IMG/VR virus record: IMGVR_UViG_3300042378_000602
From: a virus
DNA length: 64,000 bases
Reading direction: 5' to 3' (one strand)
The position numbers and the translations under genes are program-made. The notes under the pieces are model-generated. The model was not told the DNA's origin. It ran no database searches and saw only the letters and a program-made list of their open reading frames with translations. Positions 17,751 through 62,108 of this stretch are shown one piece after another; position 1 is the stretch's first letter, and each line of letters starts with the position of its first letter.

Positions 17751-20700
17751 ATGGGAAAAAATATTTTAATTGTTCCGAGTAATTTCACTGAGAGGACTGC
17801 TAACCGTACTCCATTTATAAGTTATGAGGGTACCACGGGTCAGGTTATTCTGACGGTTACACCTTCAGGTAAAATTAAATTCAGCGGTAATACTGTTGGT
17901 GATACAAATTTGATGACAGTAGACCCTGCAAATTCTACAGTTTCAGTAAACACTATTTTTGTAGGAAATTACCTTGCAATAGGAGGGGTTCAGGTAATAA
18001 ATGCCACAAACAATTGGATTGGACCCACAACAGGTATAGCTGGTTCTCAGGGTGCAAAAGGATTCAACGGAAATACAGGTCCTACGGGTGCAATAGGTAA
18101 CACAGGAGCACAAGGTGCTATTGGTGCTGCAGGCGCCACAGGACCTCAAGGTGCTCAAGGTACATTTGGGCCTAAGGGTGCTCAAGGAACTGCCGGAGCA
18201 CAAGGAAATACGGGTGCTCAAGGTAACAATGGACCCAAGGGTGCCACAGGAGCACAAGGGTCAGCAGGTGCGCCAGGTAATACAGGTAACCCTGGACCTA
18301 CAGGACAAAGTGGACACCCTGGTCCACAAGGACCAACGGGAGCCGTTGGTAATACAGGAGCACAGGGTGCGATTGGGGTTACAGGACCCACAGGTAATAC
18401 AGGTGCTCAAGGACCTGTAGGACCAACAGGTGGACAAGGTGCTCAAGGACCACAAGGAGCTCAAGGTCCAAAAGGATTTTCAGGTGCACAAGGTGCAACA
18501 GGAAACACAGGTGGAACAGGACCCACAGGAAATACAGGACATCCTGGCGCTCAGGGTGCTACAGGAAATCCTGGACCTACGGGTGTCACAGGGTCTCAAG
18601 GAGCCGTTGGACCCACCGGTGCTATAGGAGCTCAAGGACCCAAAGGAGCACAAGGGAATACTGGAAACACAGGGGCACAAGGAGCCACAGGAAATCCTGG
18701 TCCACAAGGTTTCACAGGTAATGTTGGTGCGGTAGGGCCCACAGGTGCGATTGGTCCAAAGGGACCACAAGGACCTACAGGAAATACAGGTAATGTGGGA
18801 CCACAAGGTGCCACAGGTACCACAGGCCCAACAGGTGATACAGGAGCTACAGGACCTGCAGGACCACAAGGTGCTGTGGGACCAAAAGGAGACACAGGTA
18901 ATACGGGGGCTCAGGGTGCTGTGGGGCCACAAGGAGCAACTGGTCCGACAGGACTTTCAGGTGCTCAAGGTGCCCAAGGTGGGGTAGGACCGACAGGGGC
19001 TACAGGACCACAAGGAGCTCAAGGACCTGCGGGTAATACGGGTCATTCTGGTGCACAAGGTGCTACAGGACCAACAGGGCCTGGAGGTAACACAGGTGCT
19101 CAAGGGGCGGTTGGACCGAAAGGGGCTACAGGACCTCAGGGAGCTCAAGGACCCGCAGGTGGTACAGGTAACACAGGGGCTCAGGGTGCCACAGGACCAC
19201 AAGGTTCGCAAGGGGCGGGTGGTGGAACAGGTCATCCAGGTGCCCAAGGTCCCCAAGGAGCGATAGGACCACAAGGTTCACAAGGAGCCACAGGACACAC
19301 TGGTGCTCAAGGCCCACAAGGTGCCACAGGACCACAAGGCTCACAAGGGGCTACAGGACATCCTGGTGCCCAAGGTAGTCAGGGTGCGGCCGGACCAAAA
19401 GGACCTAATGGATTCACAGGTCATCCTGGAGCGCAAGGACCGCAAGGTTCAGCGGGAGCAACGGGTGCTCAAGGTCAGACAGGTCATCCGGGGGCACAAG
19501 GTGCAGGTGGACCTACTGGGTCTCAAGGACAAGGGGGTGGTACAGGACATCCTGGAGCTCAAGGTGCCATAGGACCCAAAGGACCTCAAGGACCTACAGG
19601 TGCTACTGGCCATCCTGGTGCTCAAGGTGCTGGTGGAGGTACTGGTAACGAGGGGGCACCAGGTTTCACAGGACATCCAGGTGCACAAGGTGCTACAGGA
19701 CCAGGAGGTAGTCCGGGTGCTCAGGGTTCACAAGGTTCCCAAGGACCTCAAGGAGCTCAAGGAAATACCGGTCCGACCGGCGTACCGGGAGCTACGGGGC
19801 ATCCTGGTGCTCAAGGAGCGGTCGGTCCAACTGGCCCACAAGGTCCGTCAGGTAATACAGGACATCCTGGTGCACAGGGAGCAACGGGTCCTACAGGACC
19901 TCAAGGAAATACAGGTGCCACGGGTGCTATTGGACCCCAAGGTGCGGGAGGTGCCACAGGCTCACAAGGGGCTGTAGGACCTCAAGGAGCAACTGGAGCC
20001 ACAGGAGCCCAAGGTCCACAAGGTCCAGGTGGTCCTACAGGACCTGGCGGGGCACAAGGTGCTCAAGGAGGAGGAGGTGCCACAGGACCTCAAGGACCAC
20101 AAGGTCCAAAGGGACCTCAGGGTGCTACAGGTCCTACAGGGGGTCCTGGTCCAACTGGACCACAAGGTCCTCAGGGACCAACAGGAGCACCTGGACCTAC
20201 AGGTGCCACAGGACCACAAGGTCCTACAGGTGGTCAAGGTACACAAGGCTCATTAGGTGCAACAGGAGGGCAGGGTGCTCAAGGTTCCCAAGGAGCTGTT
20301 GGACCTGGAGGTGTAACATGTCAACTGAATAGTATTATTGCTCTTACAGGAAGTAGAAACCCATGTGTAGGTGTTTGTAATATCACTGTACCCAACGTTT
20401 ATCCATACACTCAAACTGCTTACACAGCCACACAAAACAAATATTTCGATGCTACGAATTGTTCAAATGGTACTTGTGATTGGAATACTTATAACTGGGA
20501 ACAATGGAATAGTGCATGTTATTCATTAAACGCCACTTGTGGTAATGGTACCTATCAGCAGGCTTGTGCTTATTCTGACGTGAAACTTAAAACAGGTATT
20601 GAAACCTTGAAAGATTCTCTTATAAAAATATTGGAAATAGAAACTGTTGAGTATGATTGGAACGAAAAAAATTGGGGTACCAAAGAAGAGTATGAATATT

Positions 20701-20912
20701 TTGCTCAGATGGGAAGATTACATCAGATAGGTCTAATTGCACAAAACGTAAGAATTCATTTCCCTGAAGCTGTTGGAATCGGTCCTGATGGATATTATTA
20801 CATTGACTACAAGAAATTAAATTCTGTTGTAGTTGAAGGTATAAAAGAACAACAAGTATTTATTGAAGAGATAACTAAACAAGTAGACGAATTAGAAATT
20901 AAATTGAGATAA
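17751..20912 (+). CDS. collagen-like (Gly-X-Y) tail fibre protein with C-terminal intramolecular chaperone (peptidase S74) domain
   Basis: about 850 aa of uninterrupted GXY triplets (many [12 protein letters not shown]); Cys-rich module; C-terminus [12 protein letters not shown]...[13 protein letters not shown]... of the S74 type. Confidence 0.8.
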
Positions 20913-23896
20913 TGCCATCTAATGTAATTATATATCCTACCGGTAGAACGTGGAACACTGACCCTCATTTTATTTTTGATGATGGAACTAATAAATTACA
21001 ATTCAACGTTTTAACTGACGCAATAAGTCTGTCTGCTGGGTCAATTTCAAATAATTTTGTAATTGGTACAAAAGGTTCAGACAATGGTGTCACAACCTCA
21101 GGGGCTTCCGCACAGTCACTATATTTCAACGCCTCACAATTCATAGGTTCTGGAGGTGTTTGGGTCGGACCAACTGCCGGTATCGCTGGTGCTCAGGGAG
21201 CTCAAGGTGCTCAGGGAGCCCAAGGTGGTCAGGGAGCTCAAGGAGCTCAAGGTGCAAATACAGGAGCTCAAGGTGCTACAGGTGCCCAAGGAGCAACAGG
21301 CGCACAAGGTGCGGCAAACACAACACAAGGTGCTCAAGGTACAATTGGGTCTCAAGGAGCTCAGGGTGCCACAGGAGCTCAGGGTGGAAATACGGGTGCT
21401 CAAGGAGCCACAGGAGCTCAAGGTAACCAAGGAGCTCAAGGTGCTCAAGGAGGAACAGTTGGAGCTCAGGGTGCTCAGGGTGGTCAGGGAGCTCAAGGTG
21501 CTCAAGGTGCTCAAGGTGCAAACACAGGTGCTCAGGGTGCGACAGGTCCCCAAGGAGCCCAAGGAGCGGTAGGTGCTACAGGAGGAGTTCAAGGTGCTCA
21601 AGGTGCCGTCGGTGCCACAGGTGATTTAGGTGCTCAGGGAGCTCAAGGAGCCAATACCGGAGCCCAAGGTGCTCAAGGTGCACAGGGAACTCAAGGTGCA
21701 CAAGGTGCTCAGGGAGGAAATACTGGTGCACAAGGTGCTCAGGGTACTCAGGGTACACAAGGTGCTACAGGTGCTCAAGGAGGAGTACAAGGTGCTCAAG
21801 GTGCTATAGGTACTACAGGACCACAAGGTGCTCAAGGGGCCCAAGGGGCAAACACAGGAGCTCAAGGTGCTCAAGGTGGTCAAGGTGCTCAAGGAGCTCA
21901 AGGTGCTCAAGGAGGAGTACAAGGTGCTCAAGGGGCTACAGGTCCTACGGGGGTACAAGGAGCACAAGGTGCACAAGGAGGAGTACAAGGAGCACAAGGT
22001 GCAACAGGACCTCAAGGAGCTCAAGGGGCTCAGGGATTACAAGGTGGACTTCAAGGTGCCCAAGGTGCAACAGGTGCTCAAGGTGCACAAGGTTCTACAG
22101 GTGCTCAAGGAGGTACCCAAGGAGCTCAAGGTGCCACAGGACCACAAGGTGCACAAGGAGCAATAGGAGCTCAAGGAGGAGTACAAGGTGCTCAGGGTGC
22201 AACAGGAGCAGCGGGAGCTCAAGGTGCTCAAGGAGCCCAAGGTGCAAATACAGGTGCTCAAGGCGCCACAGGACCTCAAGGTGCTCAGGGGGCGACAGGA
22301 GCCCAAGGGGGTGTACAAGGTGCTCAAGGCGCCACAGGTCCTCAAGGTGCTCAAGGTGCTCAGGGGGCTCAAGGTGCAAATACAGGAGCTCAGGGTGCTA
22401 CAGGTCCTCAAGGTGCTCAAGGTGCTCAGGGAGCCCAGGGTGCCAGTCCAGGTGCTCAGGGCGCTCAAGGTCCAAAAGGACCTCAAGGTGCTCAAGGAGC
22501 CCAAGGTGGAAGTGCAGGTGCCACGGGTGCGCAAGGTGCAACAGGTCCTCAAGGAGCTCAAGGTGCCCAAAGTGGTATAACAGGACAGGCAGGAGCTCAG
22601 GGTGCTACAGGTCCCCAAGGGGCACAAGGTGCTCAAGGTGGAAGTGCCGGTGCTACAGGAGCAGTCGGTGCACAAGGAGCTACAGGAGCACAAGGAGCCC
22701 AAGGTGCTAATCAAGGAGCACAAGGTGCTACGGGTGCTACAGGAGCTCAAGGTGCTCAAGGTGCTCAAGGTGCTAATCAAGGAGCCCAAGGTGCGACAGG
22801 TCCACAAGGTGCTCAGGGTTCACAGGGTGCACAAGGTGCTAATCAGGGAGCACAGGGGGCTCAAGGAGCTCAAGGTGCTCAAGGTTCTCAGGGAGCACAA
22901 GGAGCCAATCAGGGTGCACAAGGTGCTACAGGTCCACAAGGTGCACAAGGTGCAATTGGACCAAATAATACGACACAAGGTGCTCAAGGTGCTCAGGGAG
23001 GTCAAGGTACTCAGGGAAGTCAAGGAGCACAGGGTGCTAACCAAGGCGCTCAAGGGGCACCTGGAGTTCAAGGAGCTCAAGGAGCACAAGGTGCACAGGG
23101 TGCTAATCAAGGGGCTCAGGGAGCACCTGGAGTTCAAGGTGCTCAAGGTGCTCAAGGTTCTCAAAGTGCTACTTCGGGAGCACAAGGTTCTACAGGACCT
23201 CAAGGTGCTCAAGGTTCTACAGGACCCGGTCCTGGTCCGCAAGGAGCCCAAGGTCCACAAGGATTGACTGGAGGTGGAGGGAACACAGGTGCACAAGGGT
23301 CCCAAGGAGCTACAGGAGCCACGGGTCCTACAGGTGCTCCTGGTGGAACAGGAGCCACAGGTGCTCAAGGAGCCACAGGATTTGCTGGAAGTACTCAGGG
23401 TGCTCCAGGTGTACCAGGACCACAGGGGGCTCAAGGTCCGACAGGTGTTGGTGGTGCCACAGGCCCAACAGGCCCAACAGGTTTCAAGGGGAATACAGGC
23501 CCAACAGGCCCAACAGGTGCCACAGGTGCTCAGGGAGCACAAGGCGCTAAGTCAGATAAAAGATTAAAAGATAATATAGTTGAATTCAAAGAACCTCTCA
23601 CCCGTCTGAAACAAATCCAAGGTGTTAAATTTACTTGGGACCATGAACATCCTAAAATTAAATTTCATAAGCACCTGAATGCTAAAGAAGCGTTCACAGG
23701 TGATACTTATGGATTCATAGCTCAAGATGTAGAAAAAGTATTTCCTGAGATTGTTGACACTGACCCAACTGATGGATACAAATCTATGGATTATGGACTC
23801 TTGGTTAGTTTAGCCTTCGCATCAATTAAAGAGAATCAAAAAAGAATATTGTCAGTGAAAGATAGAATAAATAGATTAAAACAAGTAGTGAACTAA
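20912..23896 (+). CDS. collagen-like tail fibre protein with C-terminal S74 intramolecular chaperone domain
   Basis: GAQGAQGAT-type triplets across about 800 aa; C-terminus [12 protein letters not shown]...[16 protein letters not shown]; start overlaps upstream stop (TAATG). Confidence 0.8.
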
Positions 23897-26800
23897 TGGC
23901 ATCATACGTAGTATATTCAGGGACGAGTTATCTAAATGCGTGTAATTCTGTGGCATCACAGACTATTTATACACCGTGTCCATCACTAAGTGGAGGTTGT
24001 GTAGTCTATACAGATGCAGGTTATACTAATGTTATTACTTTCTCTCCATTATTACCTAATTTATATCTAAAGGATTCTGTTGATACAACGGTTTGGAAGA
24101 TAAATAGGACAGGAACTGTCACGGAGGTTAGAAAATGTACTGAATTTTCAGGTGATGAAAATATAATTGTTTATCCTGATGGAGCCAATTTTCAACTTAT
24201 AGATTCTGGAGGAACTGCCACTAACTGGTATATGGAGAATGGTGAGTTGAAATTTGGAACTTTAACTTCCACTTTAGCAAGAATAAGTACTTCCTATCCA
24301 AACCTCAGAGTCAGTGGGGGGTCAATAACACTTACTAACAAACTTGCAAATGCCTCGGGAGATTTAATAAATTCAACAGGATGGGTCGGAGCTAAATTAC
24401 CTCAAGGTCCAACGGGTGCTCAAGGTTCACAAGGTTCTACTGGTGCTCAAGGAGCTCAAGGGGGTCAAGGAGCACAGGGTACCCAAGGTTCAACAGGTGC
24501 CCAAGGTTCTCAGGGTGCTCAAGGGGGACAAGGTGCTCAAGGTGCTCAAGGGTCACAAGGACCTACAGGTGCACAAGGTTCACAAGGTGGTCAAGGTTCA
24601 CAAGGCTCACAAGGTTTTACAGGTGCTCAGGGTTCACAAGGAGCTCAAGGAGGACAAGGTGCTCAGGGTTCACAAGGAACTTTGGGACCCACAGGAGCTC
24701 AAGGTTCTCAAGGTGGTCAAGGAGCCCAAGGAGCCCAAGGTTCAACAGGTGCTCAAGGTTCGCAAGGAGCACAGGGTGGACAGGGCGCTCAAGGTTCACA
24801 AGGGGCTAAAGGTCTCACAGGTGCTCAAGGGGCACAAGGTGGACAAGGTGCCCAAGGTGCTCAAGGTTCCCAAGGTACAACAGGAGCCCAAGGTTCCCAA
24901 GGGGGACAAGGTGCTCAAGGTGCTCAAGGCGCAGTTGGTCCTACAGGTGCTCAAGGAGCTCAGGGTGGACAAGGGGCTCAAGGAGCTCAAGGGGCTGTCG
25001 GTCTCACAGGAGCTCAAGGAGCTCAAGGTGGGCAAGGTGCTCAAGGAGCACAAGGGGCTCTCGGTCCTACAGGAGCTCAAGGTTCCCAAGGTGGACAGGG
25101 TGCTCAAGGAGCACAAGGTTCACAAGGTTTAACAGGTGCGCAAGGGTCCCAAGGTGGTCAAGGAGCTCAAGGAGCTCAGGGAGGACAAGGTGCTCAAGGT
25201 GCCCAAGGTCCTAAAGGTCCACAAGGTGCTCAAGGAGCCCAAGGTGCTCAAGGTTCAACAGGAGCCCAAGGTTCCCAAGGTGGAACAGGAGCCCAAGGTG
25301 CTCAAGGTTCAACAGGAGCCCAAGGTTCACAAGGTTCACAAGGTGGAACAGGAGCTCAAGGAGCCCAAGGTTCAACAGGAGCCCAAGGTGCTCAAGGTTC
25401 CCAAGGAGGACAAGGTGCCCAAGGGGCTCAAGGTACAACAGGTGCCCAAGGAGCTCAAGGAGCTACAGGAGGTCAAGGTGCTCAGGGTTCTCAAGGACCC
25501 ACAGGAGCCCAAGGTTCTCAAGGTGCCGGAGGAGGACAAGGTGCACAAGGAGCTCAAGGTATAGTTGGAGCCCAAGGTGCTCAAGGTGGAGGTGGAGGAC
25601 AGGGTGCACAAGGAGCACAAGGAACGACAGGTCCCGTAGGTGCACAAGGTTCACAAGGTGGGCAAGGTGCTCAAGGTTCCCAAGGTGCACAAGGTGCCAC
25701 AGGAGCTCAAGGTTCTCAGGGCGTCGCCGGAGCTCAAGGTGCTCAAGGTGCTCAAGGAGCTGTTGGTAGTCAAGGTTCACAAGGAGGACAGGGTGCACAA
25801 GGAGCTCAAGGTTCACAAGGAGCTCAAGGTGCAACTGGTCCTGGTGGCGGACAAGGTGCTCAGGGAGCACAAGGAGCCACAGGTTCACAAGGTGCTCAAG
25901 GTGGAGGTGGTGGACAAGGTGCCCAAGGTGCTCAAGGGCCCGTCGGTTCACAAGGTTTTCAAGGAACAACTGGAGGTCAAGGTGCACAAGGTGCGCAAGG
26001 ACCTACTGGACCTACAGGTATCACAGGACCTAAAGGGGGTCAAGGTGCACAAGGTGCTCAGGGAGGACAAGGTGCACAGGGACCACAAGGTCATATCGGT
26101 GCAAACGGTGCAACTGGTGTTCCTGGTCCTATTGGTCCCAAAGGACCTACGGGTCCTACGGGAGGTCAAGGTGCTCAAGGAGCTCAAGGACCTGGTGGTG
26201 CTCAAGGGGCTCAAGGTCCTACGGGAGGTCAAGGTTCCCAAGGTGGAGGAGGAGCTCAAGGGGCTCAGGGTCCAACAGGACCTGGAGGTGCTCAAGGTGC
26301 TCAAGGAGCTCAAGGTCCCAAAGGTCCAATAGGTGGACAAGGTTCTCAAGGTCCCACAGGGGCTCAGGGTACCGCCGGAGGACAAGGTTCTCAAGGCGGT
26401 GGTGGTGCCCAAGGTGCTCAAGGTGCTCAAGGTCCGCAAGGAGGCCAAGGTGCTCAAGGCGGTGGTGGTGCCACAGGAGCTCAAGGACCTCAGGGGGGTC
26501 AAGGTGCCCAAGGACCACAAGGTGGTCAAGGTCCACAAGGTGCACAAGGTGCAACCGGTCCAAATGGTTTACAAGGTGCTCAAGGTGCACAAGGTACCAC
26601 TGGTTCTGACCTAAGATTAAAAAAGGACGTAAAAGAAATACAATCCCCACTAGAAAAAGTCCTGAAATTGAGAGGTGTTTCATTCTATTGGAATAAATTA
26701 AATGATGAAACATCCCAATCAGGTAAACATGATATTGGATTCATTGCCCAAGAAATAGGTCATATATTACCTGAATTGGTTTTCAAGAAAAACACCGAGA

Positions 26801-26940
26801 ACGCATATTTCATGGTAAAATATGCTGAAGTAATAGCTGTTTGTTTAGAAGCCATTAAAGAACAATCCTTGATTTTGGAATCTAAAGAAATAAAACTTGA
26901 TGAGTTAGAGACAATAGCCAAGGAAAGAGGACTTATTTAG
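23896..26940 (+). CDS. collagen-like tail fibre protein with C-terminal S74 intramolecular chaperone domain
   Basis: 165-aa unique N-terminus, then GAQGSQG triplets; C-terminus [12 protein letters not shown]...[16 protein letters not shown]; start overlaps upstream stop. Confidence 0.8.
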
Positions 26941-38599: not shown

Positions 38600-38672
38600 G
38601 GGCGAGCGGGAGGTAAGGTATCTCATTGGTCTCATAAGCCAATTGAACTTGGTTCAATTCCAAGGCGTCGCA
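38600..38672 (+). tRNA. tRNA-Met(CAU)-like element with imperfect acceptor stem (possible pseudo-tRNA or tRNA-like domain)
   Basis: T-arm cttgg-ttcaatt-ccaag; anticodon arm ttggt-cTCATaa-gccaa (U33, CAT, A37); 5-nt variable loop; G18G19 in D-loop; acceptor pairs only 4-6 bp (gcga(g)cg vs gcgtcgc). Confidence 0.4.
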
Positions 38673-45146: not shown

Positions 45147-45671
45147 ATGATTGAGGTTTTTGATGAGTTTCTCACCCCTGAGGAAATAACTGAGTTGTTC
45201 AAAACTCTAAGGGAGAGTTCTTGGATTTTGGAAGAAAAGGTCCCTTATCTTTCCGAAGTTCAATTAGAGGGAGGTGCTGATATTGGTTATATAAAAGAGA
45301 TACCTGAGAACACCATATATTGGAAGATTTTGGGTCGATTACATTCTTTACCAATAATATCAGGAAAATACAAATTCTTTTCAGCATTCCGAAATGCATA
45401 CAAGAGAGGAGATGTTACAGCTCTCCATACAGATGAGTCAGATATCACAGCACTTTTATATGGTAATCCCAAATGGAACATAAATTGGGGTTCGGAAACC
45501 ATTTTTACTGAAAGTTTATCACCTGATACAGAGATAATTGCGAGCATAATACCCAAACCTGGTAGGTTGGTAATTTTCGATTCTTCTATCCCACATTCAG
45601 GTAGACCACCAAGTTCAAGTTTTGCAAACCACAGATATTCAGTGGCTTATAACTTCAAAAAAATAATTTAA
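45147..45671 (+). CDS. 2OG-Fe(II) oxygenase, prolyl-4-hydroxylase-like
   Basis: ALHTDES (HxD), ITALLYGNPKWN..WGSETIF, GRLVIFDSSIPHSG (distal His), HRYSVAYNF (RxS). Confidence 0.6.
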   Translation: MIEVFDEFLTPEEITELFKTLRESSWILEEKVPYLSEVQLEGGADIGYIKEIPENTIYWKILGRLHSLPIISGKYKFFSAFRNAYKRGDVTALHTDESDITALLYGNPKWNINWGSETIFTESLSPDTEIIASIIPKPGRLVIFDSSIPHSGRPPSSSFANHRYSVAYNFKKII

Positions 45672-47249: not shown

Positions 47250-47276
47250 AACCCACCGAAAGGTGGGTTTTTTTTA
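47250..47276 (+). terminator. intrinsic terminator
   Basis: aacccacc-gaaa-ggtgggtt plus ttttttt. Confidence 0.65.
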
Positions 47277-47287
47277 TTCTTGTTTTT

Positions 47288-47644
47288 TTGTATACTTGTA
47301 AAATGAGTAGGAGATACAAAAACCCCGAGGAGGCTGAAAATGCCATGATTGAAAATATCCTCGACAATTTTGATTTTTATAAATGTTGGACCGTGATGAA
47401 GCTTTTGGAGTGGAGTTGGGGTATGAATGCAGAGATTCCGAATATTGATAGATTAAAAACTGCGGCAGCTAACAGATTAAAAGATGCGATAGAATTAGCA
47501 AAGAAAGGTGAGTCTCCCCATTTAACCTACTTTGTTTCAAGTGGTGGTCTGAAAGCTACCGCTTGGAGGAATAGATATCGTCAAATTGAAGCAATAAATT
47601 TGGAATTTGTTCTCACAGACTGGCAATCTGACGGAGATTGTTGA
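47288..47644 (+). CDS. hypothetical protein
   Basis: ORF; TATACTTG (near TAnnTTTG) at 47269-47276 upstream. Confidence 0.45.
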   Translation: MYTCKMSRRYKNPEEAENAMIENILDNFDFYKCWTVMKLLEWSWGMNAEIPNIDRLKTAAANRLKDAIELAKKGESPHLTYFVSSGGLKATAWRNRYRQIEAINLEFVLTDWQSDGDC

Positions 47645-47674: not shown

Positions 47675-48922
47675 ATGAAGACAAAAAAACCGAGTGCGAT
47701 AGTTTATAATTGGTACAAACAGGGTGAGGAATTATTACAAACTTCAATTTATTCTGAAGAAGGGCTTTGGGAAGAAATCATGGTTTATTCTTTACCTTAC
47801 ACAGATAATGTGGCCGAAGATTATTCCAAGTATAGACCTGATATTATTGTTTCGATTGGGACTCACGTGAATGTACCTCATTATCAATTACAACAAATTT
47901 ATGTTTTCATAGAAAATCCTTTGGGTGATTATGATTTGGCTAACACGATATGTAAGGAAGCTATTTACAAAAACCTTACATACCATAGACCACGATTTTC
48001 GGTCTTCACACCAGCATATAAGACTTATGAAAGAATTAAAAGAACTTATGAGAGTCTGAGGTCTCAAGTTTGGACTAATTGGGAATGGGTCGTAGTAGAC
48101 GATTCGCCTGACGAAATAACATGGAACCTATTGAAAGAAATTTCTTCGAAAGACTACAGGGTTAAAATTCATCGTATTTACCCGTTATCGGGTGGTAATG
48201 TAGGTTTGGCCAAACATAGAGCAGCTATGTTATGTGATGGTGATTGGTTGGTCGAGTTGGACCATGATGATACTTTGACCACAGAGTGTTTATCCACTTG
48301 TAATGATGCCATCATCAAATATCCTGATGCAGGATTTTTATATACGGATGTTTGTGAATTATATGAGGATGGTGAGATGAAATCTTATGACCATGATTGG
48401 ACAGGTGGTTGGTATGCAAGACATGATAATTTTTTTGATTTTGGTTATGCTGGTCACACTTGGGTTGAAGTAGATGGTAGAAAAATTTTGGCACACTGGT
48501 ACCCTGATATAAATCCATTATCAATAAGGTTCAATATATCCATGCCCGACCACGTGAGAATGTGGGAAAGAAACCTATATCACAAAATAGGTGGACACAA
48601 TAAACTTACTCCTGTTGCGGATGATTTGGAGATTATAATAAGAAGTTTTTTACATACACGGTTTATTCACGTAAAACGTGTCCTATATTTGCAATGGAAT
48701 AATCGTAACAGTACGGTTGATAATAATGCTCAAGATATAAATCGAAGAGCAAGAATTATTAGAGACTTTTATGATAAAGCAATCCACGAAAGAATTTTAT
48801 CCTTGGGATTCAAAGATTGGAATTGGGATGAAGAAAAACAAGAATCACAAAGATTCCAAAATCACGTGGCAATAAAAAAATATTTCGAAGAAGAAGAAGT
48901 AATGAATTACATTTATGAATAA
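47675..48922 (+). CDS. glycosyltransferase family 2
   Basis: GT-A N-terminal signature SVFTPAYKTYERIKRTYESLRSQ..WEWVVVDDSPDE and DxD (LDHDDT). Confidence 0.75.
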   Translation: MKTKKPSAIVYNWYKQGEELLQTSIYSEEGLWEEIMVYSLPYTDNVAEDYSKYRPDIIVSIGTHVNVPHYQLQQIYVFIENPLGDYDLANTICKEAIYKNLTYHRPRFSVFTPAYKTYERIKRTYESLRSQVWTNWEWVVVDDSPDEITWNLLKEISSKDYRVKIHRIYPLSGGNVGLAKHRAAMLCDGDWLVELDHDDTLTTECLSTCNDAIIKYPDAGFLYTDVCELYEDGEMKSYDHDWTGGWYARHDNFFDFGYAGHTWVEVDGRKILAHWYPDINPLSIRFNISMPDHVRMWERNLYHKIGGHNKLTPVADDLEIIIRSFLHTRFIHVKRVLYLQWNNRNSTVDNNAQDINRRARIIRDFYDKAIHERILSLGFKDWNWDEEKQESQRFQNHVAIKKYFEEEEVMNYIYE

Positions 48923-50078
48923 CAAACCAAAAATCTGTATGAACGCGATGGTAGGCAATGAAGCCAAAACCATCACAAGAATGTTAGAATCTGTTGCTCC
49001 ACACATTTCTTATTGGGTAATCCAATGTAATGGAAAAGAGGATAACACGAAAGAAATCATCGAGAAATTTTTTAATGAAAGAGGTATTCCTGGATTCACA
49101 TATGAGATAGATTGGAACTATCCAGGTTGGAATAGAAACCATACACTCCAAAGAGCCCTTCAAGCAAATCATGGTTGTGATTGGATTTTGAGAATGGATG
49201 CGGACGAAAGATTACAAATTGATGAAGATTTCGATTGGAATATTCTTTCTGACACCACTATTGATAGCTTCAATGTACCCGCATCTGCTGCAGATATAAA
49301 GTATTTCAGAACTTGGTTATGGAATGCTAAGTTACCATGGTTTTTTGCGGATGATAAACGTCACGAAACAATACATTTACCTGAAATCGGAGAAAGTTTT
49401 GTAAGAATAAATCTACCTTTCAGTTTTCGTCATTTAGTTTCCCAAGATGGAGAAACATGGCATGTTCCTCGTAAATTTCTGAGAGACGCTTTAGAATTGG
49501 AAATTGATAAAGTTGTTGGTAATAAAGTTAAAGATGACCCATATCATTTATGGTATATAGCTAAAAGTTATGCAGATTGTTATGGTAATCCTGATGAACT
49601 TCCATTTGGAAGACTTCACTCCGAAGAGTATGCTCGAAGAAGTATTTGGTATTACAATAGGTTTTTAGAACAAGTTCACGATTGGCATAATCAAAAAACC
49701 GCCACTCGTTTTGATGAAATGGCATACTTCGCATTCATCATGATGGGACAAGCCCTTCAATTTTTGGGTCAATTAGAAGATGCAATTCAACACTATTATT
49801 GGGCTGGACAATTTGCTCCAATGAGAAACGAACATTATATATATTTGAATTTCCTACTTCAAAGTTTGAATCGTAATGAAGAATTACTGAGAAATTTGGA
49901 TTATATGTTGTCTTCAGACAGAGTAAATCCTTGGCCAGGTTCTTCATTTTTGATTGAAACCAGAGCTTATTACGATACAAGTGATTTCTTGGTAAATTGG
50001 AAAAACGAAATAACCCAAAAATTGTCCGCTCCAACCGTATCAAATGATAGTTTTAGATTCGACCCGTCTCAATTTTGA
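48915..50078 (+). CDS. GT-A-fold glycosyltransferase-like protein with C-terminal helical repeat region
   Basis: ILRMDADERL (DxD) after an N-terminal Rossmann-like segment; start overlaps upstream stop. Confidence 0.5.
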   Translation: MNNKPKICMNAMVGNEAKTITRMLESVAPHISYWVIQCNGKEDNTKEIIEKFFNERGIPGFTYEIDWNYPGWNRNHTLQRALQANHGCDWILRMDADERLQIDEDFDWNILSDTTIDSFNVPASAADIKYFRTWLWNAKLPWFFADDKRHETIHLPEIGESFVRINLPFSFRHLVSQDGETWHVPRKFLRDALELEIDKVVGNKVKDDPYHLWYIAKSYADCYGNPDELPFGRLHSEEYARRSIWYYNRFLEQVHDWHNQKTATRFDEMAYFAFIMMGQALQFLGQLEDAIQHYYWAGQFAPMRNEHYIYLNFLLQSLNRNEELLRNLDYMLSSDRVNPWPGSSFLIETRAYYDTSDFLVNWKNEITQKLSAPTVSNDSFRFDPSQF

Positions 50079-51162
50079 TTATATAATTGTCGGTGCAGGA
50101 CCTTTCGGATGTGTTTGTGCTCACGAACTTACTCAGAAAGGAAAAAAGTGTCTCGTTGTCGACAAGAGATGGACCGTAGGTGGTAATTGTTATACTGAAA
50201 ATGACGGTGGTATTCACGTTCACAAATACGGTGCCCATATTTTCCATACAAACGACAAAAAGTTATGGGACTACGTGAACAAATTTGCTGAGTTTCGTCA
50301 ATACACTCATAATGTAATTGCCGACTTCAAAGGAGAAAGGTATACACTCCCATTCAACATGTGGACCTTTAACCAACTTTGGAAAATCAATGACCCTGAG
50401 TTGGCTAAGGCTAAGTTGGAACAAACAAAGTACAATGGTATGATTTCTAACCTTGAAGAGCAGGCGGTTTCGATGGTTGGGAACGAAATTTATCAAAAAC
50501 TTATAAAAGGGTATACAGAAAAACAGTGGAACAGAGATTGTAAAGATTTACCTCCTTCTATTATCAAAAGAATACCTGTAAGGTTCAGTTGGGATAGTAA
50601 TTACTTTGATGACAAATATACAGGTATGCCTATCGGCGGATATACACAAATATTCGAAAAAATGTTAGAGGGCGTAGAGGTTAGGTTAGGTATAGATTTT
50701 TTTGATTATCAACACAATTTAGAAAAACAAACACAGAAAATAATTTATACTGGACCAATAGATAGATTCTTTGATTACAAATTCGGAAAACTTGAATATA
50801 GAAGTTTGAAGTGGAGTACAACACGATTGGATATAAATAATTTTCAAGGTATACCTGTTGTGAACTATACAGATAGAGAAACTCCATACACTAGAATTCT
50901 TGAACATAAGTGGTTTGACCCACAAAATCAAAAGGGAACAATTATAAGTTATGAGTTTCCCACTGATTATGATGGGGACAACGAACCTTACTATCCAATC
51001 AGGGATGAAAAAAATACCTCAATTTTCGAGAAATATAATAACTTGGCCAAGTTGGAGAATAAGTATATATTTGGTGGTCGATTAGCATCCTATGTTTATT
51101 ATGACATGCATCAAGTAATTGCTCAAGCTCTAAAACTAACAAATGAACTCTCAAATTCTTGA
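50044..51162 (+). CDS. glf: UDP-galactopyranose mutase
   Basis: DYIIVGAGPFGCVCAHEL..KKCLVVDKRWTVGGNCYTE..GIHVHKYGAHIFHTND matches the Glf N-terminus. Confidence 0.9.
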   Translation: MIVLDSTRLNFDYIIVGAGPFGCVCAHELTQKGKKCLVVDKRWTVGGNCYTENDGGIHVHKYGAHIFHTNDKKLWDYVNKFAEFRQYTHNVIADFKGERYTLPFNMWTFNQLWKINDPELAKAKLEQTKYNGMISNLEEQAVSMVGNEIYQKLIKGYTEKQWNRDCKDLPPSIIKRIPVRFSWDSNYFDDKYTGMPIGGYTQIFEKMLEGVEVRLGIDFFDYQHNLEKQTQKIIYTGPIDRFFDYKFGKLEYRSLKWSTTRLDINNFQGIPVVNYTDRETPYTRILEHKWFDPQNQKGTIISYEFPTDYDGDNEPYYPIRDEKNTSIFEKYNNLAKLENKYIFGGRLASYVYYDMHQVIAQALKLTNELSNS

Positions 51163-51346
51163 AAATTTCAAAAAGGGTTTATACCATTATTACCCGAGTA
51201 TGGAAAAACTTTATCAATTAGATTTTGTTTATGTAGACAACCTCAAAGGTAACCCAATTTTCAAAATAACCTCGGACAATTTACCCAACGGACTTACAAA
51301 TGTTATTCAAAAGTTTGCTAAATTGTATCAGATTGAAATAGTTTGA
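51143..51346 (+). CDS. hypothetical protein
   Basis: small ORF. Confidence 0.3.
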   Translation: MNSQILENFKKGLYHYYPSMEKLYQLDFVYVDNLKGNPIFKITSDNLPNGLTNVIQKFAKLYQIEIV

Positions 51347-51359: not shown

Positions 51360-51758
51360 GTGAAAGTTAAACTCAAAAATACAGATAATCTCGTTCCAAG
51401 TAATGATTTGGAAACAATTAAAATTTTTCTGAAGTTTCTACAGTCTGAAATGGCATTGGAAAAACCTATAACAATAGTTTTATCTAATCAAAGAAAAGGT
51501 GAAATGACCACAGGGGTCAGAAAGAACGATGAAATAATAGTCTTAGCATCAAACAGACTTCTGATAGATATTCTAAGAACAATTTCACATGAATGGATAC
51601 ATGAGTATCAATTCCAAAAAATGGGATTATCAGAAAAAGATGTTATTAAAGATATAGGTGGACCCGAAGAGAACATGGCAAACACAATTGCAGGTGTTCA
51701 TATAAAGAAATTCGCTAAGAAATTTCCGAGTCTTAAACCTAGTATGTACGGGGAATAA
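51360..51758 (+). CDS. hypothetical protein with HExxH motif (GTG start)
   Basis: ISHEWIHEYQF; ATATTTATT at 51347-51355 upstream. Confidence 0.4.
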   Translation: MKVKLKNTDNLVPSNDLETIKIFLKFLQSEMALEKPITIVLSNQRKGEMTTGVRKNDEIIVLASNRLLIDILRTISHEWIHEYQFQKMGLSEKDVIKDIGGPEENMANTIAGVHIKKFAKKFPSLKPSMYGE

Positions 51759-53569: not shown

Positions 53570-53887
53570 ATGTCAACTCTACGTTCAGAACTATCCATTA
53601 GCTCAAGAACCACAGGATTTGCATCTCCTGCGGAATCTTATGTAGACAAACGTCTTGACCTGAATGACCTAATCATTCAGGACGTGCACACAACCTTTTA
53701 TTTTCAATATAAAGGTCCAAACACACTTGGAGTAAGGACAGGAAATATCCTCGTTATTGACCGTTCTATTGAGCCACACGAAGGAGATTTAGTTATTATC
53801 ACCGAGAAGGAATGTTTTAAGATTAGAAAATACGAAGGACAATCAAATGTTTGGGGAAGAGTAAATTGGATTTTAAATAAACTATAA
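53570..53887 (+). CDS. umuD: UmuD'-like SOS mutagenesis accessory protein, lacking catalytic Ser
   Basis: GFASPAESYVDKRLDLNDLIIQ...GNILVIDRSIEPHEGDLVII aligns to E. coli UmuD GFPSPAADYVEQRIDLNQLLIQ...[20 protein letters not shown]; GDSM serine replaced (GPNT). Confidence 0.6.
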   Translation: MSTLRSELSISSRTTGFASPAESYVDKRLDLNDLIIQDVHTTFYFQYKGPNTLGVRTGNILVIDRSIEPHEGDLVIITEKECFKIRKYEGQSNVWGRVNWILNKL

Positions 53888-61451: not shown

Positions 61452-62108
61452 ATGTTTCAAAACGATAATCCTCACACCAATGGAGAATCTTGGTTTATAA
61501 GTTTCATTCAAAATGAAATAGATGTTATATTCGACGTGGGGTGTAGAAGTGACAGTTTATTTTTAAACTATCCAAAGGAAGTACATTATTTTGACCCAAA
61601 CGTAGAGTTTTTACATATTTTAAAAAATCAACCTCATTCAAATACCAAAGCTTTCTACAATGAATTTGGTTTAGGTGACAAGAAAGATACTTTAAAATAT
61701 TACAAGTATTTTCAATCTTTTATAGATAGAAGGCAAACATGCCGTGTCGACAATAATACAATTTTCTTTAATGTAGACAAAGGGGTAAATTATCTCACAG
61801 AAAATAATTTAACCAACATAGATTTTTTAAAGATAGATACGGAAGGTTTTGAGTTTGCGGTAATCAAAGGGTTCGAACAAAGACTAACAGATATAAAGAT
61901 TATACAATTCGAATATGGAAAAACATATATAGATTCAGGTGTCAAACTTGTCGAAGTTGCAAACTACCTCAGAGAGCACGGGTTCCAAAGTTTTTATTAT
62001 TTAAATTCATCCCATTTGGTCCCCATAACAGATTTCCAAGACCATTACAAATATTGTAACATTATTTGTTTCAATGATAGATTTCCCGAACTGAATAAAT
62101 GGAACTAA
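61452..62108 (+). CDS. FkbM-family methyltransferase
   Basis: IFDVGCRSDS (glycine-rich AdoMet loop), FNEFGLGDKKDTLKYY, IDFLKIDTEGFEFAVIKGF. Confidence 0.7.
   Translation: MFQNDNPHTNGESWFISFIQNEIDVIFDVGCRSDSLFLNYPKEVHYFDPNVEFLHILKNQPHSNTKAFYNEFGLGDKKDTLKYYKYFQSFIDRRQTCRVDNNTIFFNVDKGVNYLTENNLTNIDFLKIDTEGFEFAVIKGFEQRLTDIKIIQFEYGKTYIDSGVKLVEVANYLREHGFQSFYYLNSSHLVPITDFQDHYKYCNIICFNDRFPELNKWN

What the first reader, a model, noticed from the sequence alone, without database searches (positions are those of the whole stretch)
47675..51162. Glycan-synthesis block: two GT-A glycosyltransferases plus UDP-galactopyranose mutase; FkbM methyltransferase at 61452-62108
UGM (a textbook Glf N-terminus) makes UDP-galactofuranose. 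Two adjacent GT-A enzymes, each with a DxD motif, and a nearby FkbM-type methyltransferase (typical of methylated sugars) complete a minimal pathway for a galactofuranose-containing, possibly O-methylated glycan. In a phage this could decorate virion proteins. The collagen fibres are the obvious candidate, by analogy with glycosylated collagen of giant viruses. Alternatively it could remodel host surface polysaccharide. The three genes overlap at starts and stops (48915/48922; 50044/50078).
Basis: partly seen in the sequence, partly recalled or inferred. Interest (0 to 1): 0.55.

Follow-up and report, generated by a model that had tools for sequence, protein, structure and literature searches.

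The report
Phage sugar-coating genes for collagen fibres
A large aquatic phage carries a tightly linked three-gene set (two sugar-adding enzymes plus the enzyme that makes the unusual sugar galactofuranose); in related phages the two sugar-adding enzymes, and in a few cases all three genes, sit right next to collagen-like tail-fibre genes, so the set most likely sugar-coats the phage's own fibres, though nobody has tested this.

Summary
ORFs 47675-48922, 48915-50078 and 50044-51162 are a GT2-family glycosyltransferase (GT1), a GT-A + TPR glycosyltransferase (GT2) and a genuine UDP-galactopyranose mutase, with real 8-nt and 35-nt overlaps. ORF 61452-62108 is an FkbM-family methyltransferase.

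The trio is a conserved module of about 320-kb aquatic jumbo phages. GT1 and GT2 are almost always adjacent.

The best-supported role is glycosylation of collagen-like virion fibres:
- GT2's full-length fold matches the peptide glycosyltransferases SunS/ThuS.
- In several diverged lineages the module lies directly downstream, on the same strand, of collagen-like, Ser/Thr-rich, S74-chaperone fibre genes. This holds for 13/80 GT2-probed and 14/73 GT1-probed loci, against 1/51 controls.
- The cultured phage Tunturi 5 shows the same proximity.
- Relatives fuse the GT to prolyl-hydroxylase-type oxygenases, DUF6445 or sugar O-methyltransferases.
- Locus L203 holds fibre, oxygenase, DUF6445, GT1, an oxygenase-GT fusion, Glf and FkbM together.

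No ThyA, TET/JBP or C5-methyltransferase partner was found, which weakens the DNA-glycosylation rival. Host-surface remodelling is not excluded. The window's own FkbM is not syntenic with the module, so its link is only at family level. Nothing here is experimental. I rate it a new variant of known virus-encoded protein glycosylation.

The parts
47250..47269 (+). Terminator-like hairpin (8-bp stem, 5 G-C pairs, T-run) that closes the upstream unit. The glycan genes start a new co-directional block after it.
47288..47644 (+). 118-aa ORF of unknown function, the first gene after the terminator. It is a possible operon member.
   Evidence: No Pfam or PHROG hit. A homologue is present in 17 of 80 GT2 loci.
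47675..48922 (+). GT1: a conserved N-terminal domain of about 100 aa, then a GT2-family GT-A catalytic domain (residues about 104-240), then a C-terminal region of about 170 aa. It is soluble and acidic.
   Evidence: Pfam PF00535, E 2e-16. PDB profile hits to K4 chondroitin polymerase, heparosan synthase, TarS, GalT1 and TarP. Invariant DDS and DHDD motifs. No TM segment, net charge -16. The model is poor at pLDDT 54, so the fold hits are only generic GT2.
48915..50078 (+). GT2: a GT-A catalytic domain (residues about 1-130, with NE and DxD motifs) plus a C-terminal TPR-like helical repeat domain (about 232-335). It is the candidate protein-directed glycosyltransferase.
   Evidence: Pfam. TPR profile hits and GmaR, E 3e-4. 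Model pLDDT 70.5. Foldseek full-length best hits are the SunS/ThuS S-glycosyltransferases at E about 1e-10, with GlfT2 at E 2e-4. BFVD viral GT-A+TPR proteins match at E down to 8e-19. No TM segment, net charge -15.
50044..51162 (+). Glf: UDP-galactopyranose mutase, the supplier of UDP-galactofuranose.
   Evidence: TIGR00031 scores 425.7 against 303.75. PF03275, E 1.4e-78. 1I8T, E 5e-140.
51143..51346 (+). 67-aa ORF that overlaps the end of Glf by 20 nt. Function unknown.
   Evidence: Only a sub-threshold Pfam hit.
51360..51758 (+). 132-aa ORF of unknown function, the last co-directional gene of the block.
   Evidence: A homologue is present in 17 of 80 loci.
45147..45671 (+). Prolyl-hydroxylase-type 2OG-Fe(II) oxygenase 2 kb upstream. 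It is a candidate accessory hydroxylase, conserved only in the window's closest relatives.
   Evidence: PF13640, E 2.8e-8. Present in L003 and L004. Not found near class A modules in IMG/VR. The same family is adjacent to or fused with the GT in other lineages.
17751..20912 (+). Collagen-like fibre 1 (1053 aa), a candidate acceptor. It has 240 in-register G-X-Y triplets, with Thr at 34% and Ser+Thr at 36% of Y positions. It ends in a Peptidase_S74 chaperone domain.
20912..23896 (+). Collagen-like fibre 2 (994 aa), a candidate acceptor. It carries 50 G-X-Thr triplets and an S74 chaperone domain.
23896..26940 (+). Collagen-like fibre 3 (1014 aa), a candidate acceptor. It carries 35 G-X-Thr triplets, has Ser/Thr at 24% of X positions, and ends in an S74 chaperone domain.
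61452..62108 (+). FkbM-family methyltransferase. It is a possible glycan O-methyltransferase, but no link to the module is shown in this genome.
   Evidence: PF05050 and TIGR01444 both above cutoff. No synteny with the module. FkbM-type genes do sit beside the module in L203 and 11 other loci, but the window's copy is only 25% identical to L203's.

Best explanation
The three overlapping genes are a phage-encoded, cytoplasmic protein-glycosylation module. Its most likely substrates are the phage's own collagen-like, Thr/Ser-rich tail fibres (17751-26940).

Proposed mechanism, step by step:
1. Glf converts the host's UDP-galactopyranose into UDP-galactofuranose. The enzyme identity is shown; the activity is inferred.
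2. GT2, the GT-A + TPR enzyme, uses its helical repeat domain to hold the unfolded or trimerising fibre chain. It attaches sugar to side-chain hydroxyls, either Thr/Ser of G-X-T/S triplets or Pro/Lys first hydroxylated by the P4H-type oxygenase. This step is inferred from architecture, gene fusions and neighbourhood.
3. GT1, an inverting GT2-family enzyme, extends the glycan. This is inferred.
4. A methyltransferase may cap the glycan. This is inferred at family level only.

The glycosylated fibres are then assembled onto the virion. A glycan coat could stabilise them, keep them hydrated, protect them from proteases, or tune adhesion.
For: 1. Unit character. The genes overlap. The GT1-GT2-Glf order is conserved in 42 of 80 loci. 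GT1 and GT2 are adjacent in 58 of 70 loci found with GT1 as the probe.

2. GT2 architecture. The best full-length solved matches are the peptide S-glycosyltransferases SunS and ThuS, E about 1e-10. There is a profile hit to GmaR. TPR repeats are present.

3. Neighbourhood. Collagen-like genes lie directly upstream on the same strand in 13 of 80 GT2 loci, which is 7 of 34 clusters at 90% identity, against 1 of 51 control loci (Fisher p = 0.007). The same is true for 14 of 73 GT1 loci. Those fibres are (G-T-S)n or (G-S-S)n with the same S74 chaperone domain as the window's fibres. L140 and the cultured phage Tunturi 5 (GT2 homologue 31% identical) repeat the association. Two class A contigs carry both fibres and triad, as the window does.

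4. Structural-module context. In class C the order is fibre, DUF6445, GT1, GT2, GT4-like, GT9-like, neck protein, terminase.

5. Fusions. The GT-A-TPR unit is fused to DUF6445 (6 of 10 proteins scanned), to TylF/Methyltransf_24 O-methyltransferases (4 clear and 1 weak of 10), and to a P4H-type oxygenase (8 loci). This parallels mimivirus L230, a hydroxylase + GT acting on viral collagen (PMC9614988).

6. L203 holds fibre, lectin-domain protein, oxygenase, DUF6445, GT1, oxygenase-GT fusion, Glf and FkbM on one strand.

7. The window's fibres offer 166 G-X-Thr sites.

8. The GTs are soluble and acidic.
Against: - There are no experimental data of any kind.
- In the window itself the fibres lie 21 kb from the module, and class A loci have no fibre within 10 kb.
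- In 22 loci (class B) GT2-Glf sits between nrdA and DNA polymerase, which is a replication context rather than a structural one.
- TPR domains also occur in enzymes and scaffolds that handle polysaccharides.
- The TM-scores to SunS/ThuS are low (0.36-0.38), because the linker (residues 140-205) is poorly modelled.
- GT2 is far below the SunS family cutoff, 15 bits against 350.
- GT1's nearest solved relatives act on teichoic acids or polyprenyl phosphates.
- The collagen association rests on 7 independent clusters in the GT2-probed set plus several more lineages from the GT1 probe, not on hundreds.
Confidence: 0.58

Rival explanations
1. Host-envelope remodelling. The GTs and Glf add Galf-containing units to host O-antigen, capsule or another surface glycan during infection. 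This would block superinfection or alter receptor display. It is the usual reading of GTs found among tail-fibre genes in marine T4-like phages.
For: GT1's closest named families are WcaA, TuaG and EPS-type GTs, and its fold hits include GtrB and TarS/TarP. PHROG labels for GT2 relatives are 'moron/AMG'. The pelagimyophage authors interpret GTs inside the tail-fibre hypervariable region as O-chain modification (PMC7029224). Galf is a common bacterial surface sugar (own knowledge).
Against: No flippase, polymerase, priming transferase, or GtrA/GtrC-type membrane protein was found in the window. Neither GT has a TM segment. The TPR domain, the SunS/ThuS-like fold, and the fusions to P4H-type oxygenases all point to a protein substrate. 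The module's position between a fibre gene and the neck and terminase genes is hard to explain by host remodelling. The family is almost absent from 185,579 species genomes, with only 2 loci, both likely viral contigs. That scan is limited to two conserved peptide patterns.
Confidence: 0.15
2. Glycosylation of another virion component, or a virion-attached polysaccharide coat, rather than the collagen-like fibres. Candidates include capsid, tail or neck proteins, as in mycobacteriophages, or a polysaccharide as on mimivirus fibrils.
For: In class C the module also abuts the neck and head-closure genes and terminase. DUF6445 belongs to a PHROG labelled 'minor coat protein'. Mycobacteriophage glycans sit on capsid and tail-tube subunits (Freeman 2023, as summarised in PMC12619734). 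Giant viruses with GT-A+TPR homologues have glycosylated fibrils (PMC9614988).
Against: The recurrent immediate neighbour is specifically the collagen-like fibre gene, always upstream and on the same strand. Those fibres are extraordinarily rich in Ser/Thr.
Confidence: 0.12
3. DNA hypermodification. Glf and the GTs attach Galf or hexoses to a hydroxylated pyrimidine in phage DNA to evade restriction, as proposed for Rhizobium phage RL38J1 and other phages with GT-A or GT-B DNA glycosyltransferases.
For: Phage UGM is placed in a DNA-glycosylation pathway in Pootjesviridae (PMC13326640). GT-A-fold DNA GTs exist, and they cluster with dioxygenases and replication genes (bioRxiv 10.1101/2023.12.21.572611). 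Class B loci place GT2-Glf-oxygenase between nrdA and DNA polymerase.
Against: There is no Tet_JBP or C5-cytosine methyltransferase hit in the window or next to the module. The associated oxygenases are P4H type, with best solved relatives PHD2 and P3H1. The GTs are acidic. GT2 carries a TPR domain. In class C and the L203 lineage the module is embedded in the fibre, neck and terminase block. The window carries several adenine- or N4-type DNA methyltransferases instead.
Confidence: 0.07

Closest known systems
Mimivirus L230 (bifunctional lysyl hydroxylase + glucosyltransferase acting on viral collagen-like proteins), and animal LH3/GLT25D1 collagen glycosylation
   Same: A virus encodes both collagen-like proteins and enzymes to modify them. 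A 2OG-Fe(II) hydroxylase is coupled, even fused, to a GT-A glycosyltransferase: the L203-type 617-aa fusion here and L230 there (PMC9614988).
   Different: The GT here is a GT2-family GT-A with a TPR tail, not GLT25D1-like. The oxygenase is P4H/PHD-type (PF13640) or DUF6445, not PLOD-type. The domain order is reversed. The sugar supply includes Galf, which the giant-virus glycan review never mentions. The fibres have few G-X-Lys sites (19) but many G-X-Thr sites (166). The host is a bacterium.
Spore exosporium collagen-like glycoproteins (BclA of Bacillus; BclA3 with glycosyltransferase SgtA in C. difficile)
   Same: Collagen-like G-X-Thr repeat proteins are O-glycosylated by a dedicated GT (PMC7157674). 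BclA glycans carry O-methylated sugars (own knowledge). Both form filamentous surface naps.
   Different: These are cellular, not viral. I did not test sequence relatedness to SgtA. No Galf is reported there (own knowledge).
SunS/ThuS glycocin S-glycosyltransferases and GmaR (Listeria flagellin O-GlcNAc transferase)
   Same: They share the two-domain layout of an N-terminal GT-A plus a C-terminal TPR-like domain that binds a polypeptide. They are the best full-length structural matches and give a profile hit.
   Different: GT2 is not a family member: TIGR04195 scores 15 bits against a cutoff of 350. No glycocin precursor or export genes are adjacent. Identity is 13-15%.
Mycobacteriophage virion glycosylation (Che8/Corndog-type; Freeman et al. 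2023)
   Same: Tailed phages encode GTs that glycosylate their own virion proteins in the host cytoplasm. In some, methyltransferases are also involved (own knowledge).
   Different: The targets there are C-termini of capsid and tail-tube subunits (as summarised in PMC12619734). There is no collagen-like acceptor, UGM, TPR-GT or hydroxylase.
Pootjesviridae (Rhizobium phage RL38J1) UGM-containing DNA glycosylation cluster
   Same: A phage-encoded UGM sits next to glycosyltransferases (PMC13326640).
   Different: There the partners are a ThyA-homologue 5-hydroxy-dCMP synthase, nucleotide kinases and GT-B-like DNA GTs. None of these was found here.

Membership tests
UDP-galactopyranose mutase (Glf; TIGR00031 / PF03275) | Equivalog HMM above the curated cutoff over the full length | tested here: met
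   425.7 bits against 303.75, covering residues 11-368 of 372. PF03275, E 1.4e-78.
UDP-galactopyranose mutase (Glf; TIGR00031 / PF03275) | N-terminal FAD-binding Rossmann motif GxGxxG, and end-to-end alignment with solved UGMs | tested here: met
   The sequence IVGAGPFG is at residues 14-21. 355 residues align to E. coli UGM 1I8T, E 5e-140.
UDP-galactopyranose mutase (Glf; TIGR00031 / PF03275) | Catalyses UDP-Galp to UDP-Galf interconversion | not testable with these tools
   This needs an enzyme assay.
CAZy GT2-type GT-A glycosyltransferase | Pfam Glycos_transf_2 above the gathering score | tested here: met
   GT1 scores 60.8 against 23.3. GT2 scores 24.8 against 23.3, which is marginal.
CAZy GT2-type GT-A glycosyltransferase | Conserved DxD metal and nucleotide-sugar binding motif | tested here: met
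   GT1 has invariant D196-H-D198-D199 and D142-D143-S144 across 30 homologues. GT2 has invariant D95-A-D97-E98 across 27 homologues.
CAZy GT2-type GT-A glycosyltransferase | GT-A fold | tested here: inconclusive
   GT2's N-terminal domain is modelled with block-mean pLDDT of 76-96 over residues 1-60, and it matches GT-A structures. GT1's catalytic domain is modelled poorly (pLDDT about 45-70), and its fold hits are weak at E >= 3.5e-4.
SunS-family peptide S-glycosyltransferase (TIGR04195) | Family HMM above cutoff | tested here: not met
   15.4 bits against 350. GT2 shares the architecture but is not a member.
SunS-family peptide S-glycosyltransferase (TIGR04195) | GT-A + C-terminal TPR-like domain architecture | tested here: met
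   Foldseek full-length hits 7msn, 7msk and 7msp at E 1e-10 to 2e-9. TPR profile hits at residues 266-383.
SunS-family peptide S-glycosyltransferase (TIGR04195) | Adjacent glycocin precursor peptide and export/processing genes | tested here: not met
   Nothing of this kind lies next to the module. A stand-alone Peptidase_C39-like gene lies 6.4 kb downstream, but it is present in only 7 of 80 loci.
Phage DNA-glycosylation (hypermodification) pathway | A base-hydroxylating enzyme clustered with the GT: either a ThyA-family hydroxymethylase or 5-hydroxy-dCMP synthase, or a TET/JBP 5mYOX with a C5-methyltransferase | tested here: not met
   No Thymidylat_synt, Tet_JBP or C5 DNA_methylase hit came up in the Pfam scans of the window ORFs I scanned. 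tblastn with E. coli ThyA found no hit in 2.4 Mb. The oxygenases present are PF13640 or DUF6445. Only 64 kb of a genome of about 320 kb was seen.
Phage DNA-glycosylation (hypermodification) pathway | Modified bases in virion DNA | not testable with these tools
   This needs nucleoside LC-MS.
Gtr-type serotype-conversion / O-antigen modification cassette | Membrane components (GtrA flippase, membrane-anchored GtrB, GtrC), or Wzx/Wzy with a priming transferase | tested here: not met
   No such Pfam families were found in the window ORFs I scanned. GT1 and GT2 have a maximum 19-residue hydropathy of 0.68 and 1.20, so no TM segment.
FkbM-family methyltransferase | Family HMMs above cutoff | tested here: met
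   PF05050 scores 47.9 against 22.7. TIGR01444 scores 43.1 against 37.7.
FkbM-family methyltransferase | Functional link to this glycan module (synteny or fusion) | tested here: inconclusive
   The window copy is 10.3 kb away. Its relatives lie on unrelated contigs. FkbM-type genes do flank the module in 12 other loci, and a GT-A+FkbM fusion exists in BFVD.
L230 / LH3-type collagen hydroxylase-glycosyltransferase | PLOD-type lysyl hydroxylase domain and a GLT25D1-like (GT25) domain | tested here: not met
   Pfam gives PF13640 and PF00535 instead. The system is analogous, not homologous, at the level tested.
Trimeric phage fibre with intramolecular chaperone (Peptidase_S74) | C-terminal Peptidase_S74 domain on the collagen-like proteins | tested here: met
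   PF13884 at E 4e-10, 1.7e-14 and 1e-15 for the three window fibres, and 4e-16 for L064.

The most novel reading that the evidence does not exclude
A widespread, virus-borne toolkit post-translationally hydroxylates collagen-like virion fibres of phages, and possibly giant viruses, and decorates them with Galf-containing, O-methylated glycans. Its parts are a GT-A-TPR glycosyltransferase, a second GT2 enzyme, a P4H-type oxygenase or DUF6445 (a new 2OG-oxygenase-like family), a sugar O-methyltransferase, and optionally UGM. On this reading it is an independently evolved prokaryotic-virus counterpart of animal and mimiviral collagen glycosylation, and DUF6445 is a new protein hydroxylase.
Probability: 0.3. 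Interest if true: 0.75.

Novelty: new variant of a known kind. Interest (0 to 1): 0.6.

Why it matters
Virus-encoded protein glycosylation has been shown experimentally for chloroviruses, mimiviruses and a few mycobacteriophages. I found no paper that links phage collagen-like fibres to a dedicated glycosylation module. Published work on related aquatic phages treats such GTs as host-LPS modifiers or leaves them unassigned (PMC7029224, PMC12619734, PMC11924767).

If the module does glycosylate fibres, several things follow:
- It would explain why these phages carry Ser/Thr-saturated collagen repeats.
- It would add Galf to the repertoire of virion glycans.
- It would give DUF6445 a function.
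- It would change how 'auxiliary metabolic' GTs in environmental phage genomes are interpreted.
- It would affect receptor-binding and host-range predictions.

A cultured carrier, Tunturi 5, makes the question directly testable.

Tried and rejected
- Megablast of 44-64 kb against GenBank phages found no match. The lineage has no close isolate.
- GT1 structure prediction was poor (pLDDT 54). Its fold search gave only generic GT2 hits and nothing for the well-modelled N-terminal 100 residues.
- DUF6445 had no PDB hit with single sequences or profiles. hhalign against the P4H-type oxygenases gave only 3% and then 39% probability. I therefore call its oxygenase nature inconclusive, despite the invariant H-x-D...H...R pattern.
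- The afdb50 fold library was unavailable.
- The probe with the fibre-flanking gene 28567-29550 recovered only two contigs that overlap the GT set. Both had fibres. The other 13 were too distant to be informative.
- FkbM as a syntenic partner of the window's module is rejected.
- 'GT2 is the invariant core' was circular, because GT2 was the probe. I corrected this with the reciprocal GT1 probe.
- A SunS-like bacteriocin system is rejected. The HMM score is far below cutoff and no precursor or export genes are adjacent.
- I could not test whole-genome co-occurrence of fibres and module for class B phages, because only +-10 kb of each contig is retrievable.

Full report
**1. The observation**

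Family searches confirm the assignments.
- The first ORF (GT1) matches Pfam Glycos_transf_2 at 60.8 bits. The second (GT2) matches at 24.8 bits, only just above the 23.3-bit cutoff, and also shows hints of TPR and of the SunS family.
- The third ORF passes the NCBIfam UDP-galactopyranose mutase equivalog with room to spare, 425.7 bits against 303.75. It aligns over 355 residues with E. coli UGM 1I8T, E 5e-140.
- The fourth ORF passes both FkbM models.
- The DxD motifs are invariant across 27-30 homologues: GT1 E-L-D-H-D-D and D-D-S, GT2 R-M-D-A-D-E.

The overlaps are real. ATG 48915 lies 8 nt inside GT1, and the conserved N-terminus of the family supports that start. ATG 50044 is the only start codon upstream of the GxGxxG motif.

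A strong terminator-like hairpin at 47250-47269 precedes a co-directional block: the 47288 ORF, GT1, GT2, Glf and two small ORFs. The promoter scan was not above chance.

**2. What genome this is**

The window is AT-rich (31-35% GC), except for three collagen-coding genes at 50-58% GC. It encodes a sigma-70 factor, DnaJ, several DNA methyltransferases and UmuD/UmuC-like proteins.

It has no close relative among GenBank phages. Both GTs do have hundreds of metagenomic homologues at 63-100% identity. The trio occurs on IMG/VR contigs of 317-321 kb, so this is an abundant clade of uncultured jumbo phages.

Across 185,579 species genomes, GT2 relatives were found on only two contigs, both binned into Bacteroidota MAGs. 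That scan finds only matches to two conserved peptide patterns. It gives a weak hint about the host, and it suggests the family is essentially virus-borne.

**3. Conservation and partners of the module**

I fetched 80 IMG/VR loci with GT2 as the probe (GT2 identity 49-67%). Among those with room in the flanks:
- 42 have GT1-GT2-Glf (class A, the window's type).
- 22 have GT2-Glf without GT1 (class B).
- 12 have GT1-GT2 without Glf (class C).

Because GT2 was the probe, I repeated the test with GT1. Of 70 loci with downstream room, 58 have GT2 immediately adjacent, 10 have a diverged GT2-like gene within about 3 kb, and 2 have none. GT1 and the GT-A-TPR enzyme are therefore a tight pair, while Glf is a frequent but dispensable third member.

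In class B, GT2 is the only GT next to Glf. That makes it the better candidate for the galactofuranosyltransferase, but this is inference only. Its structural similarity to GlfT2 is weak, E 2e-4.

**4. What GT2 looks like**

The AlphaFold model has mean pLDDT 70.5. It is confident for the GT-A core and for the helical repeat domain at residues 232-335, and poor for 140-205.

Its best full-length matches among solved structures are the glycocin peptide S-glycosyltransferases SunS and ThuS, E 1e-10 to 2e-9 over 347-397 alignment columns. The TM-scores are low (0.36-0.38) because the linker is poorly modelled. A sequence profile also detects TPR repeats and the N-terminal GT domain of GmaR. From my own knowledge, GmaR is the Listeria flagellin O-GlcNAc transferase.

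Among predicted viral structures, the same two-domain layout is common in marine phages, Synechococcus phage S-SRM01, Dickeya phage JA29 and many giant viruses, E 8e-19 to 1e-11.

The exhaustive representative search finds about 1,850 clusters at E <= 1e-10 but only 53 at E <= 1e-30.

GT1 is a generic inverting GT2-family enzyme. Its model was too poor to say more. Both GTs lack membrane segments and are acidic, with net charges of -16 and -15.

**5. The link to collagen-like fibres**

The window encodes three fibres of about 1,000 aa each (17751-26940). Each has 195-240 in-register G-X-Y triplets and a C-terminal Peptidase_S74 chaperone domain. Thr dominates the Ser/Thr content of their Y positions, which is 36%, 22% and 18%, giving 166 G-X-Thr triplets in all.

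In the window the fibres lie 21 kb upstream of the module. Two class A contigs that could be checked show the same layout.

The decisive observation comes from diverged lineages.
- All 12 class C loci, plus L047, have collagen-like coding runs directly upstream of the module on the same strand.
- The GT1 probe adds 11 more such loci.
- Control loci fetched with unrelated probes have collagen runs in 1 of 51 cases, against 13 of 80 for GT2 loci. That is 7 of 34 clusters at 90% identity, Fisher p = 0.007.
- The neighbouring fibres are nearly pure (G-T-S)n or (G-S-S)n and end in the same S74 domain. In L203, Ser/Thr fill 68% of all X and Y positions over 787 triplets.
- The Saprospirales-binned contig L140 repeats the order collagen, GT1, GT2.
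- In the cultured 309-kb myovirus Tunturi 5, the GT2 homologue gp35 is only 31% identical. It lies 3.7 kb from the 'tail fiber protein' gp29, which contains collagen-like runs matching the window's fibres. The Tunturi paper mentions neither collagen nor virion glycosylation.
- In class C the order is fibre, DUF6445, GT1, GT2, a 91-aa ORF, a GT4-like GT, a GT9-like GT, the neck/head-closure protein, a 257-aa ORF and the large terminase. This places the module inside the late structural block.

**6. Accessory enzymes and fusions**

A 2OG-oxygenase-type partner often accompanies the module.
- A P4H-type enzyme (PF13640) follows Glf in 13 of 24 class B loci.
- DUF6445 precedes GT1 in 11 of 13 class C loci.
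- Neither is found near class A modules. The window's own subclade is the exception, with a PF13640 gene 2 kb upstream at 45147-45671.
- The best solved relatives of the class B enzyme are PHD2/EGLN1, with collagen P3H1 matching weakly. They are not TET/JBP or AlkB.

Close GT2 homologues are fused to DUF6445 in 6 of the 10 proteins scanned. They are fused to Methyltransf_24/TylF-type sugar O-methyltransferases clearly in 4 of 10 and weakly in a fifth. One carries a second GT2-family domain. Eight loci encode a 617-aa protein that fuses a PF13640 oxygenase to the GT-A unit.

Whether DUF6445 itself is a 2OG oxygenase remains inconclusive. The residues H-x-D...H...R are invariant, and hhalign gives E 3e-4 at 39% probability on the strand carrying the distal His. 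There is no PDB hit.

L203 brings everything together on one strand:

| L203 coordinates | Gene |
|---|---|
| 2-7582 | collagen-like fibre |
| 7585-8484 | ConA-like lectin-domain protein |
| 8828-9412 | PF13640 oxygenase |
| 9417-9998 | DUF6445 |
| 9998-11248 | GT1 |
| 11254-13107 | oxygenase-GT fusion |
| 14315-15418 | Glf |
| 17310-18263 | FkbM methyltransferase |

**7. FkbM**

The window's FkbM is 10.3 kb downstream of Glf, behind about 25 unrelated genes. Its nearest IMG/VR relatives (about 50% identity) sit on other large contigs that share no other window gene and carry no GT or Glf.

At family level, FkbM-type genes lie within 10 kb of the module in 12 loci, all from the collagen-adjacent lineages. 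The window's copy is only 25% identical to L203's. A GT-A+FkbM fusion exists in BFVD.

The idea of a methylated glycan is therefore reasonable for the family. It is not demonstrated for this gene.

**8. Rivals**

DNA glycosylation must be taken seriously. Phage UGM is placed in a DNA hypermodification pathway in Pootjesviridae (PMC13326640). GT-A-fold DNA GTs cluster with dioxygenases and replication genes (bioRxiv 10.1101/2023.12.21.572611). Class B loci sit between nrdA and DNA polymerase.

Against this rival:
- I found no ThyA-family, Tet_JBP or C5-methyltransferase gene in the window ORFs I scanned or beside the module in any locus examined.
- The oxygenases are of the protein-hydroxylase type.
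- The GTs are acidic, and one carries a TPR domain.
- The module is embedded in fibre, neck and terminase blocks elsewhere.

Only 64 kb of a genome of about 320 kb was visible, so this rival keeps a small probability.

It is not excluded. It lacks any membrane or export component here, and it does not explain the hydroxylase fusions or the fibre adjacency.

A different virion target, such as capsid, tail or a polysaccharide coat, also remains possible.

**9. Comparison with known systems, and novelty**

The functional analogues are:
- mimivirus L230, a hydroxylase + GT acting on viral collagen (PMC9614988);
- spore BclA/BclA3-SgtA glycoproteins (PMC7157674);
- SunS/ThuS/GmaR, which share the architecture;
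- mycobacteriophage virion glycosylation (as summarised in PMC12619734).

The module is not a member of any of these families by the tests I ran. My literature searches found no description of a glycosylation module tied to collagen-like phage fibres. The 'moraphage' and Tunturi papers list such GTs without assigning a target.

I therefore rate it a new variant of a known kind, namely virus-encoded virion protein glycosylation. The whole case rests on comparative and structural inference.

**10. Verdict**

The best explanation is fibre glycosylation, at confidence 0.58. Interest is 0.6. The finding is abundant in nature and internally coherent, it is testable in a cultured phage, and it gives a plausible function to DUF6445 and to many environmental 'AMG' glycosyltransferases. 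It remains unproven.

Noticed in passing
window 39405-39811 (+), with 38602-38672 (+): A complete GOLLD RNA (Rfam RF02032) scores 314.7 bits against a gathering score of 150, E 3e-89, covering model positions 1-416 of 416. A tRNA-like element (RF00005, 33.1 bits) lies about 730 nt upstream, although ARAGORN calls no tRNA. Together they explain the GC bump at 38-40 kb and the dubious short ORFs there. This is a large ornate ncRNA in a jumbo phage and is worth its own follow-up.
   Followed up: partly
window 33551-33991 and 33972-34373 (+): An APS-kinase-like gene overlaps a cytidylyltransferase-like gene, directly upstream of an N6/N4 DNA methyltransferase at 34373-35227. This could be a nucleotide-activated sulfate or sugar pathway. 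I did not test any relation to the glycan module.
   Followed up: no
L203 11254-13107; also L182, L184, L185, L191, L193, L194, L201: A 617-aa single protein fuses a P4H-type 2OG-Fe(II) oxygenase to a GT-A plus helical-repeat glycosyltransferase. It is an L230-like 'hydroxylate and glycosylate' architecture in tailed phages.
   Followed up: partly
L064 2725-3300, L079 4270-4833 and 7000-7584, L084 4651-5226, L203 9417-9998: DUF6445 (PHROG 1644, labelled 'minor coat protein') is a recurrent neighbour or fusion partner of the GT. It has invariant H-x-D...H...R residues, which suggests a new 2OG-oxygenase-like family. No solved relative was found.
   Followed up: partly
L079 (IMGVR_UViG_3300042691_018363): A cyanomyovirus contig carrying psbA and speD also has a glycan island. 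It comprises an extra 250-aa ORF of unknown function, DUF6445, GT2, Glf, a second DUF6445, and a GT2-family domain fused to a SAM methyltransferase. S-CRM01 has a homologue of the last gene near its psbA.
   Followed up: partly
L047, L059, L061, L064, L065, L071-L073, L080, L081, L084, L140, L182-L203 (locus starts): Many contigs end inside the collagen repeat, which is a typical assembly break. Metagenomic surveys will therefore systematically under-count fibre-module adjacency.
   Followed up: no
L102-L115 (contigs labelled GVMAG, and a 307,866-bp contig): The nearest relatives of the window's FkbM sit on 200-307-kb contigs binned as giant-virus MAGs. One matches the maximum size quoted for 'moraphages' (PMC12619734). 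These may be jumbo phages rather than NCLDV.
   Followed up: no
window 57603-58304 (+): A stand-alone Peptidase_C39/C70-like cysteine peptidase, the bacteriocin-processing type, lies 6.4 kb downstream of a SunS-like GT. It is present in only 7 of 80 related loci, so the pairing is probably coincidental.
   Followed up: partly
window 52197, 56335, 60611 (N-termini): Three otherwise unrelated proteins share an N-terminal motif of the form ..[RK]-I-[KR]-E/T-[ILV]-M.. at residues 9-16 (RIREVM, RIKTLM, KIREIM). The shuffle expectation is 0.15 proteins. It could be a targeting or processing signal.
   Followed up: partly
window 53570-53887 and 54310-55515 (+); 2027-2824; 10534-11451; 43648-44523 (-): The window encodes a UmuD-like protein (my reading of the sequence, not tested) and a Y-family polymerase (IMS domains). 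It also encodes a sigma-70-type factor, a full DnaJ, and a second protein rich in CxxCxGxG zinc fingers.
   Followed up: no
window 60305-60589 (-), 62217-62480 (-), 62489-62758 (-): Three small paralogous ORFs flank the FkbM gene and share the motif ..ILPK(F/Y)PWI(E/K)D.K.. Their function is unknown.
   Followed up: no
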